From a virus (taxonomy: Duplodnaviria; Caudoviricetes), in the IMG/VR virus record IMGVR_UViG_3300020576_006967, positions 96,001-160,000 of that record: 64,000 nucleotides of DNA. The stretch is one strand, 5' to 3'. The notes below the pieces were generated by a model that was given only the letters and a program-made list of their open reading frames with translations, was not told where the DNA came from and searched no databases. A program made the translations under genes and the position numbers. Positions 27,652 to 34,859 of the stretch are shown here, piece by piece (within the stretch, counting starts at the first letter, position 1; each line of letters opens with the position of its first letter).

Positions 27652-28296
27652 TTGAAAAAATTACTTTATTTACTCAGCTCAATATTGGTTTATTTGTGGA
27701 TTTGTAATACGCCGACATTTCAATTCATAGCGTGGCCAATAAATATGCTTTGTACTTTTTTACACGAATTTGGTCATGCGTTTTTTTCTATAATTTCTGG
27801 CGGTACAGTACACTCTTTAGCAGTTAACAATGATGGCAGTGGCGTTACAACAACGAGCGGAGGCAGTCAAGGATTGTGCACAATAGGCGGTTATGTTGGA
27901 AGCGCTATTTTTGGAAATGTTATGCTGTGGTTATCTGGAAGTAAGTGGTCTTCTATCACTTTAAAAATTATTGCTTTTGCAATGTTCTTTTCTTCTATAA
28001 TTTGGTTTGACAATATTTTCACAACTGCTATTCTGGCTTTTTTTGCAATTGGTTTATACTTTGTTTCAATGGTACCTTTTAACTCGTTTGTTTTAAGTTT
28101 CCTTGGTGTTGCTTGTGCTATTTACATTATACAAGATTTCAATGTTGGACCAACATCAGATCTTCAAGCTTACGAGCAAGAAGTTGGTATATTTCCTGCA
28201 GGTGTTTGGATGTACATTTGGTTAGGTTTAGTTTTGGCAAGTACATCTTTTACGATGTGGAAAATTTTAAAAATAAATAATGGAAGAAGCAATTAA
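27652..28296 (+). CDS. M50B-like membrane metallopeptidase
   Basis: FLHEFGHA...GG.V...DGSGVT...GGYVGS...SD; multiple TM helices. Confidence 0.88.
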   Translation: MKKLLYLLSSILVYLWICNTPTFQFIAWPINMLCTFLHEFGHAFFSIISGGTVHSLAVNNDGSGVTTTSGGSQGLCTIGGYVGSAIFGNVMLWLSGSKWSSITLKIIAFAMFFSSIIWFDNIFTTAILAFFAIGLYFVSMVPFNSFVLSFLGVACAIYIIQDFNVGPTSDLQAYEQEVGIFPAGVWMYIWLGLVLASTSFTMWKILKINNGRSN

Positions 28297-29062: not shown

Positions 29063-29091
29063 TGAAACCTTTTATATCTTTGTTCGTATAA
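29063..29091 (+). promoter_or_regulatory. ECF-sigma-like phage promoter
   Basis: TGAAAC-N16-CGTATAA before ATG 29112. Confidence 0.75.
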
Positions 29092-29111: not shown

Positions 29112-29762
29112 ATGCAAAAGACAGCCACGCAAACAGCCACAAACAGCGCAAGCAAAGGGTTAACAAAGAACGTAATTCAATTCCGTAATGGTTTTGTAAA
29201 TTTACCAAGTTCTAAATCGGCTAATTATCAGATGGCAATGTCTGTTACTGCTGAACTTATGCAATTTGGTTATATTCTTGAACAATCTGCTATAACAAAT
29301 TTGAGCTCAGCTTCCAAAGAAGATATTATAAATTTCCACAATGAAATAATTGTGTATTTAAAACATATGACTGGTTCTAATAGAAACTACCAAGCTTTCT
29401 ATTCTGGTTTTCCAACTCAAGTAATGGAAATGTCTGATTGCGAACTTTGGGTAAACCAAATTGTTCATTATATTTCTAATGGTCGTTTTGTTCCAAACGA
29501 ATGGACAAAAGAAAAACCGACAGCTTTCGAGAATTCAAAATATACAAAAATTGGTTCTGGAAATGATGAAAAATTTATAAACATTTTTACTGATTTGGTA
29601 AGTGTAAACAACTCTTTAACACCAGACGATCAAAGCATTATTGAGTTTTTTATAAGCAATGGAATTGAATTAAGATTTCCTGACCAGATACCATTTAAAG
29701 AAAATCTTTGCAAGGTTATAGGTGAATTAGCTAAAAGTGGTAAAAAAATAGAAATTGAATAA
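29112..29762 (+). CDS. N-terminal half of a split large TerD-domain stress protein
   Basis: ELMQFGYIL...FYSGFP.QVMEM...NQIVHY...SLTPDD...IPFKENL, as in the N-terminal region of long TerD-domain proteins. Confidence 0.75.
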   Translation: MQKTATQTATNSASKGLTKNVIQFRNGFVNLPSSKSANYQMAMSVTAELMQFGYILEQSAITNLSSASKEDIINFHNEIIVYLKHMTGSNRNYQAFYSGFPTQVMEMSDCELWVNQIVHYISNGRFVPNEWTKEKPTAFENSKYTKIGSGNDEKFINIFTDLVSVNNSLTPDDQSIIEFFISNGIELRFPDQIPFKENLCKVIGELAKSGKKIEIE

Positions 29763-29822
29763 AAACCATAACAGACTTTGTTTTTTTTAAAAAAACTTAA
29801 TATTTATATTAAAAAGTCTGTT

Positions 29823-30737
29823 ATGGAAGAAAAAACTAAGTATTTTATTGGCAAAGCAAAAAAAACACATGGAAACAAATATGATTACTCTTTAGTTGAA
29901 TATAAAAGTAGTCGAGAAAAAGTTAAAATAATTTGCAAAAATCACGGAGAATTTGAGCAACAAGCTAATTCTCATTTGCAAGGAAAAAAATGTATGCAAT
30001 GTTCAATAGAAGAAAGATCTTTGAAAAGAAAAAACACAAAAAAAGAATTTATAAACAAAGCGATTGAAATACATGGGAAAATTTTCGATTATTCAAAGGT
30101 TGACTATGTAAACAATAAAACTAAAATTAAAATAATTTGTAAAAATCACGGAGAGTTTGAACAAAGACCAGATTGCCACTTATTTTTAAAACACGGATGT
30201 CCAAAGTGCGGCGGCACTTCAAAAGTTAGCTTAGAAGAGTTTAAGAAAAGAGCAAATGATAGACACGATGGTTTTTTTAATTATTCAGCAGTAACATTTA
30301 ATAATATTACTGATAAAGTTGAAATAAATTGTCCAAAACATGGCCCATTTATACAAGGTGTTAAAGCTCATTTAGATGGAAATGCTTGCCCTAATTGTAA
30401 GACTTCAAAATTAGAAAACAAAATTTTAAAAGAAATAAAAGGAATAACAAATGAAATTAGAATTAAACAATTTTACAAGAGCGCATGGTTAGAAAGACAA
30501 CATATTGATATTTTTTTGTTAGATTTTAATATAGCAATAGAGTGTCACGGAATACAACACTATGAGGTAATTGAAAAATTTGGAGGTGAACCCGCATTCA
30601 AAAAAAGAATTGAGTTGGATTCTAAAAAAAGAAAACTGTGTGCAGAAAACAATATTGAACTTTATGAAATTCCGTATTTTTATAACAAAAGTGAATTGAA
30701 TGAAGTTTTACAAAAAATAAAAAACAAAATAGCATAA
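29823..30737 (+). CDS. free-standing homing endonuclease (DUF723-like zinc repeats plus PD-(D/E)xK domain)
   Basis: Three HG.KYDYS.V.Y...K.KIIC..HGEF.Q....H...CP.C repeats; C-terminal DIFL..NIAIECHGIQHY...D..K. Confidence 0.85.
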   Translation: MEEKTKYFIGKAKKTHGNKYDYSLVEYKSSREKVKIICKNHGEFEQQANSHLQGKKCMQCSIEERSLKRKNTKKEFINKAIEIHGKIFDYSKVDYVNNKTKIKIICKNHGEFEQRPDCHLFLKHGCPKCGGTSKVSLEEFKKRANDRHDGFFNYSAVTFNNITDKVEINCPKHGPFIQGVKAHLDGNACPNCKTSKLENKILKEIKGITNEIRIKQFYKSAWLERQHIDIFLLDFNIAIECHGIQHYEVIEKFGGEPAFKKRIELDSKKRKLCAENNIELYEIPYFYNKSELNEVLQKIKNKIA

Positions 30738-30750
30738 AAAAACAAAGCAT

Positions 30751-32388
30751 ATGAACACAACATTAAATAAAGAACAAAACACTATTGTGTTAAAAAATTT
30801 AAAACTGACCGTGACAGATATTTTGCGTGTGGCAGTTCATATGTCTGGTGGAGATATTTCATTGCCAAAGGTGCCAAGAAAACTTATTAGAGCTAACAGA
30901 TGGAGCTCACATCAGTCTGCCAATCCAGAGCGTGAAAAATTTAAGTTTAAAAGCTTTTCTCGTCCTGAACGTAGAATTATCCTTTCTCTTCTTGAGAAAA
31001 CAAATTGTGATGCTTCCGAAGCAAAACTTAAAGCGCAGCGTTGGGCAAAACTTGGTCATTCACTTCACGTTGGTGAATATGCAAAGAAATTTCCAAAAGC
31101 TTTAGCTATGTTCAATTCTGTGCGTAATGAAAAGGTGCAGTCTTGGTATGGTAAAGTAAATAGCGCATTTGCTTCTTCTTTTAACGAAGGAATTAAACTT
31201 CTTTCACAAAGACCAGGTGAATTTATGCGTAAACTTGACTGGTTGCTTAGAACAGAGGTTTCAAGCACAAAACCTTTTAAAGGAAATATCCTTGCAAAGT
31301 ATTTTACTAAGGATCCACATGTTTCAGATTCTTTAAAGAAGTTGACCCTTGAAGAAAGAGTTGCTCTTGTATTGGATGTGTTTAAAGTTATTGCTCCTAA
31401 AGTAAGTAACAAAGTGTTATATGAAGCATATAGCCATTTTGAAGGGCGTTACGAGGAAAAAACTAATAGAACTATTATGGTAAAGGGTTCAAGAAAAAGA
31501 ACTACATTACCTAGTTTGCCAGCTATTCCAGCAAGTGTAATTGAATCAGTTCAGCGAGGTGTTATTGAAGCTCTTATGAGTAAATTTGCTGCATTACCAA
31601 AGCTTGAAAAAGTTTATGTGGATGAGCAATTAAAAAACATTCCTATGCCAACTAACATGCGTTCTTTAAATTCTTCGTTGAAGCCTACTATCAGAGGTTT
31701 GAGAATGCCTATTGGAAACACAGACTCTAAGGTAATTCGTGTTTATGTTCACTGGTTCGATGAACGTGGAAATAAAGATATTGACTTGAGCACAACTTTT
31801 GTTGGAAATAACAAGCAGCCAATTGTAATTGCTTACACAAATTTGAGAAATGAGTTTACTACTCACTCAGGTGACGTAAGGCACCGTCAAGGTGCTTGTG
31901 CTGAGTACATCGACATTGAAATTGCTAAAGCACGTAAGGCTGGATACAAATATGCAACTGTTGATATCAGAAACTTCAATGGTGGATCTCTTGCGTCAAT
32001 TAAGGACTGTGTGTTTGGCTTCATGGAGCGTGAGTTCCCAGAGTCTAACAAGACATTCTTACCTTCTACATTGGCAAATTCAATGAAGTTGGAAAGTTCA
32101 TCTACTGTAACTTTGGCCGTGATTATTGATCTTGAAACCAGAGAGTACATATATATGGACATTGATTCAACATCGTTGCCAGTTGCTTCTATGTCTGTAA
32201 AAGACACTATTGCTGCAATTAAGCCTTATACAGATGCACCAAAATTCTCTGTATATGACTTAGCATTGCTTCACGCAGAAGTTAGAGGTGCAGAACTTGT
32301 TGAGAAAGAAGAAGAAGCTAACACCTGCTTTAAGTTTGAAGAATATAGCCAAAGCTATATCGAAATACTTAAACTCATGGGAGTTTAA
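30751..32388 (+). CDS. C-terminal half of split TerD-domain protein
   Basis: TVTDILRVAVHMSGGDISL, RPGEFMRKLD, TerD-like DIDLS...HSGD....ACAEYIDI. Confidence 0.8.
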   Translation: MNTTLNKEQNTIVLKNLKLTVTDILRVAVHMSGGDISLPKVPRKLIRANRWSSHQSANPEREKFKFKSFSRPERRIILSLLEKTNCDASEAKLKAQRWAKLGHSLHVGEYAKKFPKALAMFNSVRNEKVQSWYGKVNSAFASSFNEGIKLLSQRPGEFMRKLDWLLRTEVSSTKPFKGNILAKYFTKDPHVSDSLKKLTLEERVALVLDVFKVIAPKVSNKVLYEAYSHFEGRYEEKTNRTIMVKGSRKRTTLPSLPAIPASVIESVQRGVIEALMSKFAALPKLEKVYVDEQLKNIPMPTNMRSLNSSLKPTIRGLRMPIGNTDSKVIRVYVHWFDERGNKDIDLSTTFVGNNKQPIVIAYTNLRNEFTTHSGDVRHRQGACAEYIDIEIAKARKAGYKYATVDIRNFNGGSLASIKDCVFGFMEREFPESNKTFLPSTLANSMKLESSSTVTLAVIIDLETREYIYMDIDSTSLPVASMSVKDTIAAIKPYTDAPKFSVYDLALLHAEVRGAELVEKEEEANTCFKFEEYSQSYIEILKLMGV

Positions 32389-32390
32389 TA

Positions 32391-32415
32391 AAAAGGGCCT
32401 CAGGGCCCTTTTTTT
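32391..32415 (+). terminator. Rho-independent terminator (possibly bidirectional)
   Basis: AAAAGGGCC-TCAG-GGCCCTTTTTTT. Confidence 0.85.
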
Positions 32416-32443
32416 GTAACCTTTTTGTTTTATGTGCGTATAA
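32415..32443 (+). promoter_or_regulatory. ECF-sigma-like phage promoter
   Basis: TGTAAC-N16-CGTATAA. Confidence 0.7.
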
Positions 32444-32463
32444 GATTATAAATCGTCTAAAAA

Positions 32464-32667
32464 ATGAAAAACGGTAAATGGTTGTTCTTATTATACCTTC
32501 TTTGTCTAGCTGTTGGATTTGTATGGAGTGTTAAGATTTATTTCGATAATTGGAATAGAATAATGAGTGACCACGATAAGTTTGAATTATATAAATATCC
32601 AGTTGGCGTGTTGTGTTTGGGTATCATTGCATATAACTTTCACAAAGTATTCTATGAAAAAGAGTAA
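32464..32667 (+). CDS. small membrane protein
   Basis: Two TM helices. Confidence 0.6.
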   Translation: MKNGKWLFLLYLLCLAVGFVWSVKIYFDNWNRIMSDHDKFELYKYPVGVLCLGIIAYNFHKVFYEKE

Positions 32668-32992
32668 CAAAGTCAATAACTCTACAAAAAGAAATTTCCA
32701 GCTTCAAGGTTTGTGGTTTACTCAAAAAGAAGCGACCTATTTGGTTCGTGAAGCTAAAAAAATTGGTTTTACACCAATGTCTCAGTACGCAAAGGAAAAA
32801 GTTTTTAATAAAAAAGAAGTTCTTGGTTATATTTATTTCCTTCATACAAAAAGCGAAAACACATTTCGTTTGGATAAATTTGAAATTAAAAACGCTGGCT
32901 TAGATATATTTAAAGATAACGTTTCGAACATTTTTTTTACTCTATTATTTAAGCAGCACGAAGAAAGCATATCTATTTACCACGAAGAATGA
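32654..32992 (+). CDS. hypothetical protein
   Basis: ATG 32654; ATGA coupling to next gene. Confidence 0.6.
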   Translation: MKKSNKVNNSTKRNFQLQGLWFTQKEATYLVREAKKIGFTPMSQYAKEKVFNKKEVLGYIYFLHTKSENTFRLDKFEIKNAGLDIFKDNVSNIFFTLLFKQHEESISIYHEE

Positions 32993-33489
32993 CGATTCCA
33001 AAAAACATAGCTAAGGCTCTCGGAAACCCTGGAATATGGGCGTATGTAAAAGAAAAATATTACAACGAGGCAATTAATTATCTTGACAAAGAGCTTGATG
33101 AATTTCACGACAAAAAACGTGGAGATATTAAGGTAAAATTTAAAGACTTCGACTATAAACATGAAATTGATGCTTGTGATTTCTCACACGAGAAATTTCA
33201 AGACGAAGATGTGTTGATTGGTATTTGGAGAGTAAAAAAAGAATATCTTATTCCAGACCTTGATGATTATGAAGATATGGTTAAAGATAAAGATTGCAAG
33301 TTTTGCCGCAGAGAATACCCGTCAAGAAAAATATCTCTTGATGGTTTAAAAGTTGAGCACTATGACCATGATGGCGGTTGGCCCGTAAGAGGATTTGCAA
33401 AAAAGCAGTGGCTTTATGTGGTTTGCCCAGGATGTGGTCACCAACACTCATTTAATCATCTTGGAATTAGTAAAGAAGTAAAGCAATAA
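32989..33489 (+). CDS. hypothetical zinc-ribbon protein
   Basis: CKFC...HYDHDGGW...QWLYVVCPGCGH. Confidence 0.7.
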   Translation: MTIPKNIAKALGNPGIWAYVKEKYYNEAINYLDKELDEFHDKKRGDIKVKFKDFDYKHEIDACDFSHEKFQDEDVLIGIWRVKKEYLIPDLDDYEDMVKDKDCKFCRREYPSRKISLDGLKVEHYDHDGGWPVRGFAKKQWLYVVCPGCGHQHSFNHLGISKEVKQ

Positions 33490-33490
33490 T

Positions 33491-34102
33491 TTGGATTACG
33501 AAAAACAAATAGATATCATAAGAAGCGTAACTCACAGTATAGAACCTCACAAAGTGACCATACTTACTGGAAAAAACGGTAGCGGTAAATCTCTTGTAAG
33601 AAAAATATTGAGTGGAGTTATAAGTGAAAAGTGTGGAACTGATATCAAACACACTGTTGCCGCAGTTTCTATGGAATCTAGATCAAATCGCAAAATGGAT
33701 TTCAGCGCTCTTAATTCTGCTGGCATTGACGATCCTGAAAATCCAACTGGTTTAGAAAGTCTTCACAATCTGGACATGATTCTTGGATCCTTTACAAAGG
33801 ACAGTCCAAGATATATTGTGATTGACGAGCCTGAGCTTGGCATGGGTGAAGAAATGGTTGTTGCTTTTGCTAACAAATTAAACTCTGTTTTTGAAACGCT
33901 TCCAGAGGGTTGTTTGGGTGTTATGATCATTACTCACAGTCCAACAATGATAAAGCTGTTAAAAGGCAAATTTGCTAACATGGAGGGTATGACTCGTGAA
34001 GAATGGCTTAATAGAGAAATTATACCCACTGATTTAGAGCAATTTAAGGTTGATTCCCTGGGTCTTTGGAGGGCAATACAAAATTATTCGAAAAAAAATT
34101 AA
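33491..34102 (+). CDS. ABC-type ATPase (stand-alone)
   Basis: Walker A GKNGSGKS, Walker B/D-loop IVIDEPELG, H-loop IITHS. Confidence 0.85.
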   Translation: MDYEKQIDIIRSVTHSIEPHKVTILTGKNGSGKSLVRKILSGVISEKCGTDIKHTVAAVSMESRSNRKMDFSALNSAGIDDPENPTGLESLHNLDMILGSFTKDSPRYIVIDEPELGMGEEMVVAFANKLNSVFETLPEGCLGVMIITHSPTMIKLLKGKFANMEGMTREEWLNREIIPTDLEQFKVDSLGLWRAIQNYSKKN

Positions 34103-34109
34103 AAAATAC

Positions 34110-34140
34110 TTGCTATTTATTTGAAATAGTATTATATTTG
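34110..34140 (+). promoter_or_regulatory. Bacteroidota sigma70-type promoter for the ncRNA array
   Basis: TTG-N20-TATATTTG (TAnnTTTG). Confidence 0.7.
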
Positions 34141-34167
34141 TACTCAGAAAGTTCTTTTACGTATTTT

Positions 34168-34780
34168 AAACAAACTAAAGCAGGCCATGTGTCTAGTTAC
34201 TTCTATCTCTTGAAATGATTTTACTGTCACGCTTTCCAGCTTTACTTTGTTTTACAGATATTCAAAAATATTGACGGCCATCTGTATTCTTACTTCTCGC
34301 CGAAAGGCATTCAATTGTTAACTGAAACCACAGAAGCAGAATTACCGTCTTTGTTATTGGAGGCCATGTGTCTACTTACTTCTAAATTTTTCAGCAAAAA
34401 AAACATTAGTATCACAATTTCCTCCTGTTATTTCAAATAAGTTTAAACGGCCACATGTCTAGTTACTTCTACTTTTATTCCAAAAAACTACTAGCATAAT
34501 TACCGTTTAAACTTATTTACCTTATTAAACTGGCCATGAGTCCAGCTACTTCTACAGATCCACCTCAAGGAGGATTACCAAACTGCTAGCTCAATTACCA
34601 GTTTATGTTCTTTAAAATATTGTCAATTCAGGGCTAAACGGCCATGTACCCAGAGACTGAAAACTACTTCATCAGGTTCCCGTAATTGGAACCCGTGAAA
34701 GTTCAGAGTCTGCAGCTACTTCTATACAATTATAAAATAGAGATGATCTTATGATCGGATGCTGATACAATTACCGCCTG
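34168..34780 (+). ncRNA. array of six structured ncRNA units sharing a GGCCAY...TACTTCT...AATTACC scaffold
   Basis: GGCCAY at 34183, 34276, 34362, 34449, 34532, 34640; compensatory base changes in three stems; no long ORF; own promoter and terminator. Confidence 0.85.
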
Positions 34781-34816
34781 GAAAAACAATCATCGGGTCA
34801 TCTCGACCAGAACAAT

Positions 34817-34859
34817 AATCCGCCATTACACATAAGAACATGGCGGATTTTTTGCTTTT
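34817..34859 (+). terminator. Rho-independent terminator ending the ncRNA array
   Basis: AATCCGCCAT / ATGGCGGATT 10-bp stem plus T-tract. Confidence 0.75.

What the first reader, a model, noticed from the sequence alone, without database searches (positions are those of the whole stretch)
29112..34859. Candidate ribonucleoprotein system: large TerD-domain protein plus the ncRNA array (Ro60/Y-RNA-like logic)
Seen: a two-part protein of about 760 aa, with a long apparently helical basic region and a C-terminal TerD-like domain (DIDLS...HSGD...AEYIDI), lies about 1.8 kb upstream of the array. A stand-alone ABC ATPase sits directly before the array promoter. Established: Ter-family stress loci often co-occur with TROVE/Ro60 and RNA-repair genes, and Ro60 binds a bulged helix of Y RNAs that carry tRNA-like modules. 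Inference: the conserved internal-loop handle is the binding site for this protein, giving a set of RNPs with interchangeable RNA arms. The link rests on proximity and analogy only.
Basis: inference. Interest (0 to 1): 0.8.

Follow-up and report, generated by a model that had tools for sequence, protein, structure and literature searches.

The report
TerD-tailed protein with partner RNA array
A large phage carries a two-piece gene for an uncharacterised 760-residue protein and, 1.8 kb away, six small structured RNAs; the same protein-RNA pairing recurs in distant phages and many bacteria, so the two most likely form an undescribed RNA-protein particle built on the logic of Ro60 and its Y RNAs.

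Summary
29112-29762 and 30751-32388 are the two halves of one gene, split by a free-standing HNH homing endonuclease. The protein has a helical-repeat N-terminal part and a C-terminal TerD domain (structure match Z 13.5). At 34177-34781 lies a self-contained array of six covarying RNA hairpins with one conserved "handle".

Comparative data now support the link strongly.
- Starting from the protein, handle RNAs lie on the gene's strand within about 500 nt in 14/14 IMG/VR loci, 8/9 distant GenBank phages and 58/80 bacterial species genomes. No other neighbouring gene is conserved.
- Starting from the RNA, 39 of 51 verified units in metagenome contigs sit next to the gene, always on its strand (median gap 93 nt).

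Neither the protein (Pfam) nor the RNA (Rfam 15) is catalogued. The helical part resembles Ro60 only weakly (Z 5.6-6.7; profile comparison negative), so this works like Ro60/Y RNA but is not shown to be a member. The ABC-type ATPase and three other ORFs between gene and array are not conserved with the system. Binding itself is untested.

This scan reached the same pairing before on other DNA (e1-5374704, e1-5755188). New here are the wide bacterial spread, the RNA-first test and the relation to NCBIfam NF041916.

The parts
29074..29081 (+). TAnnTTTG promoter-like box (TATCTTTG) about 30 nt before the N-half start codon
   Evidence: Read from the sequence. The Bacteroidota -7 consensus is established knowledge. 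Not tested.
29112..29762 (+). N-terminal half (216 aa) of the split helical-repeat/TerD protein gene
   Evidence: phrog_33734 positions 30-171, E 1.1e-14. 46% identical to residues 3-185 of the intact 690-aa homologue. Keeps all conserved residues of this part.
29823..30737 (+). Free-standing HNH homing endonuclease gene that splits the host gene in a variable surface loop
   Evidence: phrog_559 E 2.8e-60; Pfam DUF4379 and DUF723. No group I or II intron in Rfam at E<=10. Absent from the intact gene in 14 related loci.
30751..32388 (+). C-terminal half (545 aa): rest of the helical-repeat domain plus the TerD domain
   Evidence: phrog_33734 positions 236-731, E 3.5e-44. 54% identical to residues 199-690 of the intact homologue. 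NCBIfam NF041916 E 5.4e-63, below its cut-off.
31630..32121 (+). TerD-fold domain with the invariant DxD / SGD / E / D metal-site residues
   Evidence: Mapped from model residues 473-636: VIA Z 13.5 to 2qz7_B and 12.1 to 2kxt. PDB profile hit to 3ibz, E 0.009. Invariant D493, S520-G521-D522, E532, D606 are kept in the window copy.
32464..34102 (+). Four intervening ORFs (67, 141, 166 aa of no family; 203-aa ABC-type P-loop ATPase at 33491-34102). Not part of the conserved system.
   Evidence: Pfam and PHROGs. No homologue in any of about 130 protein-carrying loci fetched by then.
34133..34140 (+). TAnnTTTG promoter-like box (TATATTTG) in front of the array
   Evidence: Read from the sequence. 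Not tested.
34177..34243 (+). RNA unit 1 (3' loop strand GCUUU instead of AAUUA)
   Evidence: R1 74.4 bits.
34270..34352 (+). RNA unit 2
   Evidence: R1 65.8 bits.
34356..34428 (+). RNA unit 3
   Evidence: R1 82.5 bits.
34443..34510 (+). RNA unit 4 (16-bp perfect outer stem)
   Evidence: R1 81.2 bits. Inverted repeat I4.
34526..34605 (+). RNA unit 5
   Evidence: R1 69.8 bits.
34634..34781 (+). RNA unit 6, with an extra long hairpin inserted between P2 and P3
   Evidence: Read from the sequence. Partial R1 match at 34703-34781, E 0.5.
34814..34858 (+). Terminator-like hairpin (13-nt arms, 13-nt loop) followed by a T run
   Evidence: Inverted repeat I12 and sequence. The consensus scanner misses it because its loop limit is 8.

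Best explanation
The split gene encodes a two-piece protein of a very large, unnamed family: a helical-repeat N-terminal domain plus a TerD-fold C-terminal domain with an intact metal site. The six RNAs are its dedicated partner RNAs. Each RNA has a conserved handle: an outer stem ending in GG/CC, an asymmetric internal loop (5' CYAY opposite 3' NNUUN), two short covarying stems, then an invariant UUMCUUCUA. On this handle sits a free-to-vary arm. I infer that the protein recognises the handle, so one protein is loaded with a set of RNAs that differ in their arms. In other genomes the arms are plain loops, hairpins, permuted tRNA-like domains or whole tRNAs, and the handle can also be grafted into a tRNA. 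This is the logic of Ro60 with Y RNAs. Members often sit in phage tRNA regions near CCA-adding enzyme and RtcB genes, which points to a role in tRNA or RNA surveillance, repair or decoying during host-phage conflict. Shown here: gene anatomy, fold, RNA structure, conserved linkage. Inferred: direct binding, which face binds, and the cellular role.
For: Protein-first linkage. The RNA model R1, built only from window units 1-5, finds 3-6 units directly downstream on the gene's strand in all 14 IMG/VR homologue loci (52-54% identity). No other window protein from 20-45 kb is shared there. Model R2 finds units within about 500 nt on the gene's strand in 8 of 9 distant GenBank phages: Rhodococcus Weasels2, Ruegeria RpAliso, Rhodobacter RcXuper, Xanthomonas XacN1 and Xoo-sp13, Lactobacillus LpeD, and two uncultured phages. 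In 80 bacterial species genomes, 58 loci have a unit at E<=0.01 and 66 at E<=1. All 105 matches lie on the gene's strand. No other protein family is shared by the flanks. RNA-first linkage. A motif scan of metagenome contigs that did not use the protein returned 80 loci, 51 with a model-verified unit. Of these, 39 carry the gene, always on the same strand, with a median gap of 93 nt and a maximum of 478 nt; 34 units are upstream and 5 downstream. In viral contigs the figure is 4 of 4 verified arrays. RNA structure. 40 phage units are 87% paired, with 163 double-change cells against 51 in shuffles; slid controls give 36-53%. 78 bacterial units are 93% paired, with 465 against 145; slid controls give 44-54%. 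Trans-acting features. The window array has its own promoter-like box and terminator 1.8 kb from the gene. Circularly permuted handles are mounted in two tRNA-like genes 128 kb away in the same genome, and another sits at the end of the L014 array. Protein. The AF2 model has pLDDT 94. TerD matches reach Z 13.5. All three Ro60 representatives (2nvo, 9l5y, 1yvp) are the longest low-rmsd matches of the helical domain: Z 6.7, 6.5 and 5.6 over 219-246 residues. The window halves keep 44 of 45 conserved residues.
Against: No binding or expression data could be obtained. Linkage could reflect cis regulation rather than a particle: in bacteria most units lie just 5' of the ORF, and in Paenibacillus alvei the likely Shine-Dalgarno GGAG lies inside the outer stem. 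About a quarter of RNA-first units have no gene in the fetched DNA; at least 8 of them have several kb (4), or enough flank to show part of an adjacent gene (4), on the expected side. One genome has units on contigs without the gene. The Ro60 resemblance is below the level the aligner's own notes call reliable (Z<8). Foldseek finds nothing for the helical domain, and hhalign against four TROVE proteins gives 1.2% probability. Salicola phage SCTP-2 and 14 of 80 bacterial loci gave no RNA hit, although the model comes from phage units and filters were on.
Confidence: 0.7

Rival explanations
1. The handle RNA is only a cis-acting leader or operator of the gene. This would be a riboswitch, or an autoregulatory site where the protein (or a ligand such as a metal) controls translation or termination of its own mRNA. 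There would be no trans-acting particle.
For: In bacteria, 34 of 39 RNA-first units and most protein-first units lie directly upstream on the same strand, with a median gap of 93 nt. In Paenibacillus alvei the second unit ends 4 nt before the ATG, with GGAG inside its 3' outer-stem strand.
Against: Units also lie downstream of the gene: all 14 IMG/VR loci, Weasels2, and several Bacillaceae. Arrays of up to six units carry different arms. The window array has its own promoter-like box and terminator, with four unrelated ORFs between it and the gene. Handles are grafted into tRNA-like genes 128 kb away. Units occur on contigs without the gene. Autoregulation could coexist with a particle.
Confidence: 0.15
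2. The RNAs are tRNA-like decoys or processing signals that act with host enzymes. The TerD protein is a separate calcium or stress sensor of the Ter kind that merely travels in the same mobile module.
For: Published accounts treat phage TerD genes as Ter-system stress or superinfection factors (PMC7824862; PMC12880540). Arms include tRNA-like domains and whole tRNAs. Some units are remote from the gene.
Against: A two-part module kept together on one strand, a median of 93 nt apart, across Actinomycetota, Bacillota, Pseudomonadota, Bacteroidota, Planctomycetota and their phages, with no other conserved neighbour, is hard to explain without a direct functional tie. No other Ter gene (TerB, TerC, TelA, TerY) appears as a conserved neighbour in the flanks.
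Confidence: 0.08
3. The repeats act at the DNA level, as recombination sites or mobile-element ends rather than as RNA.
For: A hairpin-bounded cassette system was noted elsewhere in this window by the scan (e1-5755233). The array consists of repeated hairpins.
Against: Strand is strictly tied to the gene: 105/105 and 39/39. G-U pairs are frequent at paired positions, for example U-G 34 times at one pair, which is an RNA-level signature. A promoter-like box and terminator bracket the array. No recombinase is a conserved neighbour.
Confidence: 0.03

Closest known systems
Ro60 (Rsr, TROVE) with Y RNAs, especially bacterial and phage YrlA (Chen et al. 2014, PMC4201824; Thermus phage phiLo Ro60, PMC12135203)
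   Same: A large helical-repeat protein capped by a metal-binding C-terminal domain. Partner RNAs are encoded within a few hundred nt on the same strand. The RNAs have a conserved terminal-stem handle plus a variable or tRNA-like module. There are several different RNAs per protein. Phage copies sit in tRNA and RNA-repair neighbourhoods. All three Ro60 structure representatives are the longest structural matches of the helical domain.
   Different: No TROVE signal by Pfam or hhalign. The C-terminal domain is a TerD beta-sandwich, not vWA/MIDAS. The handle is GGCUAU ... UUMCUUCUA ... UUUCC rather than GNCGAA(N)G or GGUCCGA, and neither Rfam YrlA nor Y_RNA matches it. Three of five genomes with this protein also have a canonical TROVE gene elsewhere, so it is a separate system.
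TerD family (Pfam PF02342; structures 2kxt, 3ibz, 2qz7)
   Same: Same fold (Z 12-13.5) and the same DxD / SGD / E..D motif pattern as the calcium site of TerD.
   Different: Here it is the tail of a 690-aa protein with a 430-residue helical domain. It falls below Pfam's detection. It has no Ter-operon neighbours and is tied to an RNA.
NCBIfam NF041916, MXAN_6230/SCO0854 family RING domain-containing protein
   Same: Clear sequence relatives over profile positions 385-769, E 1e-50 to 1e-130.
   Different: Scores fall below the 600-bit cut-off, and the first ~385 profile positions are not covered by the best-scoring stretch (3 stretches matched; only the best one's range was reported). That this unmatched part is the N-terminal RING is inferred from the family name. 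No function is published for that family: no paper in the library names either locus tag.
Autoregulatory mRNA leaders bound by their own gene product (ribosomal-protein leaders)
   Same: A structured RNA directly 5' of the ORF in most bacterial members, with the ribosome-binding site in a stem in at least one case.
   Different: Multi-unit arrays, downstream and remote copies, tRNA-grafted copies and variable arms are not features of such leaders.

Membership tests
Ro60 / TROVE | TROVE domain detectable by sequence profile (PF05731) | tested here: not met
   No Pfam hit at E<=1 in 10 diverse members or at E<=0.01 in the window halves. hhalign of 78 members against 4 TROVE proteins gives probability 1.2%. 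The genome has no PF05731 match.
Ro60 / TROVE | HEAT-repeat ring fold | tested here: inconclusive
   Helical domain alone: 2nvo_A Z 6.7 (233 aligned, 4.5 A), 9l5y_B Z 6.5 (219), 1yvp_A Z 5.6 (246). Whole chain: Z 4.9-5.8. Foldseek finds nothing. Z<8 is within the range of unrelated helical repeats by the tool's own note.
Ro60 / TROVE | C-terminal vWA domain with MIDAS site | tested here: not met
   The C-terminal domain is a TerD beta-sandwich (Z 13.5).
Ro60 / TROVE | Partner RNA encoded within 4 kb on the same strand (criterion of Chen et al. 2014, PMC4201824) | tested here: met
   The partner is a different RNA family, however.
Y RNA / YrlA (Rfam RF00019, RF02553) | Match to the covariance models; GNCGAA(N)G or GGUCCGA Ro-binding motif in the 5' strand of the terminal stem | tested here: not met
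   No Rfam match at gathering score, or at E<=10 over the array. The 5' strand reads GGCYAY.
TerD (PF02342) | TerD beta-sandwich fold | tested here: met
   2qz7_B Z 13.5, 2kxt Z 12.1. Foldseek prob 1.00.
TerD (PF02342) | Pfam HMM above the gathering score | tested here: not met
   No hit at E<=1. Only a PDB profile hit to 3ibz at E 0.009.
TerD (PF02342) | Calcium binding | not testable with these tools
   Motif residues are invariant. Metal binding is inferred.
NCBIfam NF041916 (RING_SCO0854) | Score above the 600-bit equivalog cut-off, with the N-terminal RING domain | tested here: not met
   169-435 bits; the best stretch covers only profile positions 385-769.

The most novel reading that the evidence does not exclude
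This is a widespread, uncatalogued ribonucleoprotein class of bacteria and phages. It is independent of Ro60, which coexists with it in some genomes. A TerD-tailed helical-repeat protein is loaded, through one conserved RNA handle, with interchangeable RNA arms, including tRNA mimics and whole tRNAs. Its metal-sensing TerD domain couples RNA surveillance or tRNA protection to a calcium or stress signal.
Probability: 0.45. Interest if true: 0.88.

Novelty: new variant of a known kind. Interest (0 to 1): 0.8.

Why it matters
Ro60/Y RNA is the only well-studied case in bacteria of a ring-like protein that uses modular, tRNA-like RNAs as tethers and gates. A second system with the same logic would give RNA-quality-control and phage-host tRNA-conflict research a new machine. 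This one has a different protein tail and a different RNA handle. It is present in at least 296 bacterial species genomes and 2,401 protein clusters at 50% identity. It would also supply a function for a very large "hypothetical protein" family, a new RNA family for Rfam, and an RNA-linked role for a TerD domain. Cultured carriers make it directly testable: Paenibacillus alvei, Bacillus toyonensis, Priestia abyssalis, and phages Weasels2, RpAliso, RcXuper, XacN1 and LpeD.

Tried and rejected
- Exact-motif scans of viral contigs with the window's own handle sequence gave mostly chance hits in coding DNA. Only L032 was real.
- A tandem-motif scan gave three real arrays, one chance hit and two contigs with a tandem 5'-half-handle repeat that the model rejects.
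- The search for related loci failed with the 78-sequence alignment and found nothing in viral contigs with two distant proteins.
So there is no expression or assembly evidence.
- The whole-genome RNA search of five bacterial genomes is low-powered: only 150 of thousands of first-look candidates were scored. It missed units known from the loci, so it was not used as evidence of absence.
- Three of four canonical TROVE loci examined have no handle RNA within about 1.5 kb, so the handle is not a general Ro60 partner.
- Rejected: a group I intron around the endonuclease.
- Rejected: the ABC-type ATPase or the three small ORFs as system parts.
- Rejected: a conserved second protein partner. Orphan units have unrelated neighbours.
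- Papers on phage TerD genes concern canonical Pfam TerD proteins, not this family.


Full report
**What the window is.** The window is bases 96001-160000 of a 188.9-kb IMG/VR phage record. GC content is about 31% and almost all genes are on the + strand. TAnnTTTG promoter-like boxes of the Bacteroidota kind are present (read; the consensus is established knowledge).

**The protein gene.**
- ORFs 29112-29762 and 30751-32388 match the same 764-position family, phrog_33734, at positions 30-171 and 236-731. The ORF between them is an HNH homing endonuclease (phrog_559, E 2.8e-60).
- Rfam finds no intron, even at E<=10.
- In 14 IMG/VR loci the homologue is one uninterrupted 690-aa ORF.
- The split falls between residues about 185 and 199 of that ORF. 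This is a loop between helices 181-189 and 200-210 of the model.
- The two halves keep 44 of the 45 invariant or near-invariant residues of the family.
- I therefore read it as a live gene in two pieces.

**The protein family and fold.**
- The family is very large: 2,401 clusters at 50% identity with E<=1e-3. It has no Pfam domain.
- NCBIfam relates it to NF041916, the "MXAN_6230/SCO0854 family RING domain-containing protein". The best stretch covers only profile positions 385-769, and scores fall below the cut-off. No paper in the library names those locus tags.
- An AlphaFold2 model built from a 78-sequence alignment is confident: pLDDT 94, pTM 0.91.
- Residues 473-636 are a TerD sandwich: 2qz7_B Z 13.5, 2kxt Z 12.1; Foldseek prob 1.00; PDB profile hit to 3ibz at E 0.009. 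The DxD, SGD, E and D positions are invariant.
- Residues 1-430 are helical repeats. Searched alone (model pLDDT 95), the longest low-rmsd matches are the three Ro60 representatives: 2nvo_A Z 6.7 over 233 residues, 9l5y_B Z 6.5 over 219, 1yvp_A Z 5.6 over 246.
- Those Z values are in the range that unrelated helical repeats reach. Foldseek finds nothing. hhalign against four TROVE proteins taken from genomes that also carry this family gives 1.2%.
- The one segment hhalign aligned puts the family's near-invariant W277...H285-P286 on TROVE's W-S-H-R-D...H-P-K block. This is roughly where the structural alignment would put it. I record that as a lead only.

**The RNA array.**
- Six units start at 34183, 34276, 34362, 34449, 34532 and 34640.
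- Each unit reads: outer stem, GG, CCAY, P2 (3 bp), 2 nt, P3 (4 bp), UACUUCU, variable arm, P3', 1 nt, P2', AAUUA, CC, outer stem'.
- Unit 6 has a long hairpin inserted between P2 and P3.
- The 721-nt region folds as separate hairpins, z -6.6.
- It is bracketed by a promoter-like box and a hairpin plus T run.
- Nothing in Rfam 15 matches.
- The same handle, circularly permuted, is mounted in two tRNA-like genes at genome positions about 1937 and 2250.

**The link, tested from the protein side.**
- A covariance model built only from window units 1-5 (R1) found 3-6 units directly downstream of the gene, on its strand, in all 14 IMG/VR loci. None of the other window proteins from 20-45 kb is shared by those loci.
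- A broader model (R2, from 40 units) found units within about 500 nt on the gene's strand in 8 of 9 distant GenBank phages with 22-31% identical proteins. Their hosts include Actinomycetota, Alpha- and Gammaproteobacteria and Bacillota.
- Several of these loci lie among tRNA genes, next to a CCA-adding-type nucleotidyltransferase, or a few kb from RtcB.
- In GTDB species genomes the protein has 296 confirmed relatives. Of the 80 loci kept, 58 have a unit at E<=0.01 and 66 at E<=1. All 105 matches are on the gene's strand.
- All-against-all clustering of flanking ORFs shows no other conserved neighbour.

**The link, tested from the RNA side.**
- A motif scan of metagenome contigs that made no use of the protein returned 80 loci, 51 with a model-verified unit.
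- Of these, 39 carry the gene, always on the same strand. The median gap is 93 nt and the maximum 478 nt. In 34 the unit is upstream and in 5 downstream.
- Of the 12 without the gene, about four have too little flank on the expected side. The rest are true orphans with unrelated neighbours, one of them 2 kb from RtcB.
- In viral contigs all four verified arrays found by motif have the gene beside them.
- The motif was derived from units found beside the gene, so this test is biased toward known clades. It could still have failed and did not.

**RNA structure across the family.**
- 40 phage units: 87% of cells paired; 163 double-change cells against 51 in shuffles; slid controls 36-53%.
- 78 bacterial units: 93% paired; 465 against 145; slid controls 44-54%.
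- These alignments were fitted to the model, which favours its structure. The size of the effect and the slid controls argue that the structure is real.
- The family consensus is GGCUAU, P2, P3, UUMCUUCUA ... P3', P2', NNUUUCC.
- Arms range from 4-nt loops to inserts that Rfam calls whole tRNAs (L069) or a permuted tRNA-like domain (Weasels2 unit 3, read).

**Reading.**
- A two-component module has stayed together on one strand, tens of bases apart, through hosts of at least six phyla and their phages, while everything around it changed. The most economical account is that the protein acts on or with the RNA.
- Several features favour stable trans-acting RNAs over a mere leader: multi-unit arrays with differing arms, downstream and remote copies, an independently bracketed array in this window, and grafting of the handle into tRNAs.
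- The upstream position and the ribosome-binding site inside a stem in P. alvei leave room for autoregulation as well.
- The logic matches Ro60/Y RNA (PMC4201824, PMC12135203). Membership is not shown: the TROVE profile and the vWA domain are not met, and the ring fold is inconclusive.
- Ro60 coexists with this system in three of five genomes checked. In one Microscillaceae assembly a handle unit sits right after a TROVE gene and a Band_7 gene, but three other TROVE loci have none.

**What is not part of it.** The ABC-type ATPase (33491-34102) and the three small ORFs between gene and array have no counterpart in any other locus.

**Prior notes of this scan.** The scan had already reached the same protein-RNA pairing on another phage (e1-5374704) and from the tRNA-mounted copies of this genome (e1-5755188). 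I used these as leads after my own model had found the linkage. I re-tested the claim here and extended it to bacteria, to an RNA-first test and to the NF041916 relation.

**Limits.** No expression, binding or assembly evidence could be obtained. E-values of the RNA models are rough, as the build tool states.

Noticed in passing
genome positions ~1880-2010 and ~2200-2330 (outside the window); L014:12110-12235: The handle occurs circularly permuted inside tRNA-like genes. The outer stem is closed by a loop, and the arm position opens into the tRNA anticodon-stem region. One such copy ends the RNA array of the related phage locus L014.
   Followed up: partly
L138:2770-2941 (Paenibacillus alvei DSM 29): Two handle units lie directly 5' of the protein ORF. 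The second ends 4 nt before the ATG, with a GGAG inside its 3' outer-stem strand. This would allow translational autoregulation.
   Followed up: no
L157:692-3754 (Microscillaceae MAG, contig C341): A canonical TROVE gene, a 680-nt gap containing a T-arm-like match, a Band_7/SPFH gene and then a bona fide handle unit (40 bits) lie in a row on one strand. The TerD-type genes of this assembly are on other contigs.
   Followed up: partly
L069:6545-6801 (Puia sp. MAG): One unit's variable arm contains a sequence that Rfam scores as a full tRNA (65.6 bits). The next gene is a 122-nt tRNA match, probably a tRNA with a grafted handle.
   Followed up: no
L055:1480-3314 (Ruegeria phage RpAliso): 1.8 kb annotated as empty, upstream of the protein gene, is full of T-arm-like GGTTCGA elements and CATCCTTCTA / CATACTTCTA handle motifs. 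Only one unit passes the model, so this phage may hold many diverged or tRNA-fused units.
   Followed up: no
L066:1520-1610 and L067:3540-3630: A tandem repeat of the 5' half of the handle (GGCTAT...TTACTTCT) has no 3' half and is rejected by the RNA model. Its meaning is unknown.
   Followed up: no
family consensus (A6), loop 5' strand: The invariant UUCCUUCUA of the bacterial units is pyrimidine-rich. From memory, it resembles the 3' tail of Bacillus 16S rRNA (anti-Shine-Dalgarno region). It could pair with purine-rich sites. Not tested.
   Followed up: no
window 27652-28296: ORF with a strong Peptidase_M50B-like match (E 4.7e-30) just upstream of the split gene.
   Followed up: no
window 29766-29826: A 14-bp hairpin covers the start codon of the homing endonuclease (seen; also noted by the scan as e1-5755227).
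   Followed up: no
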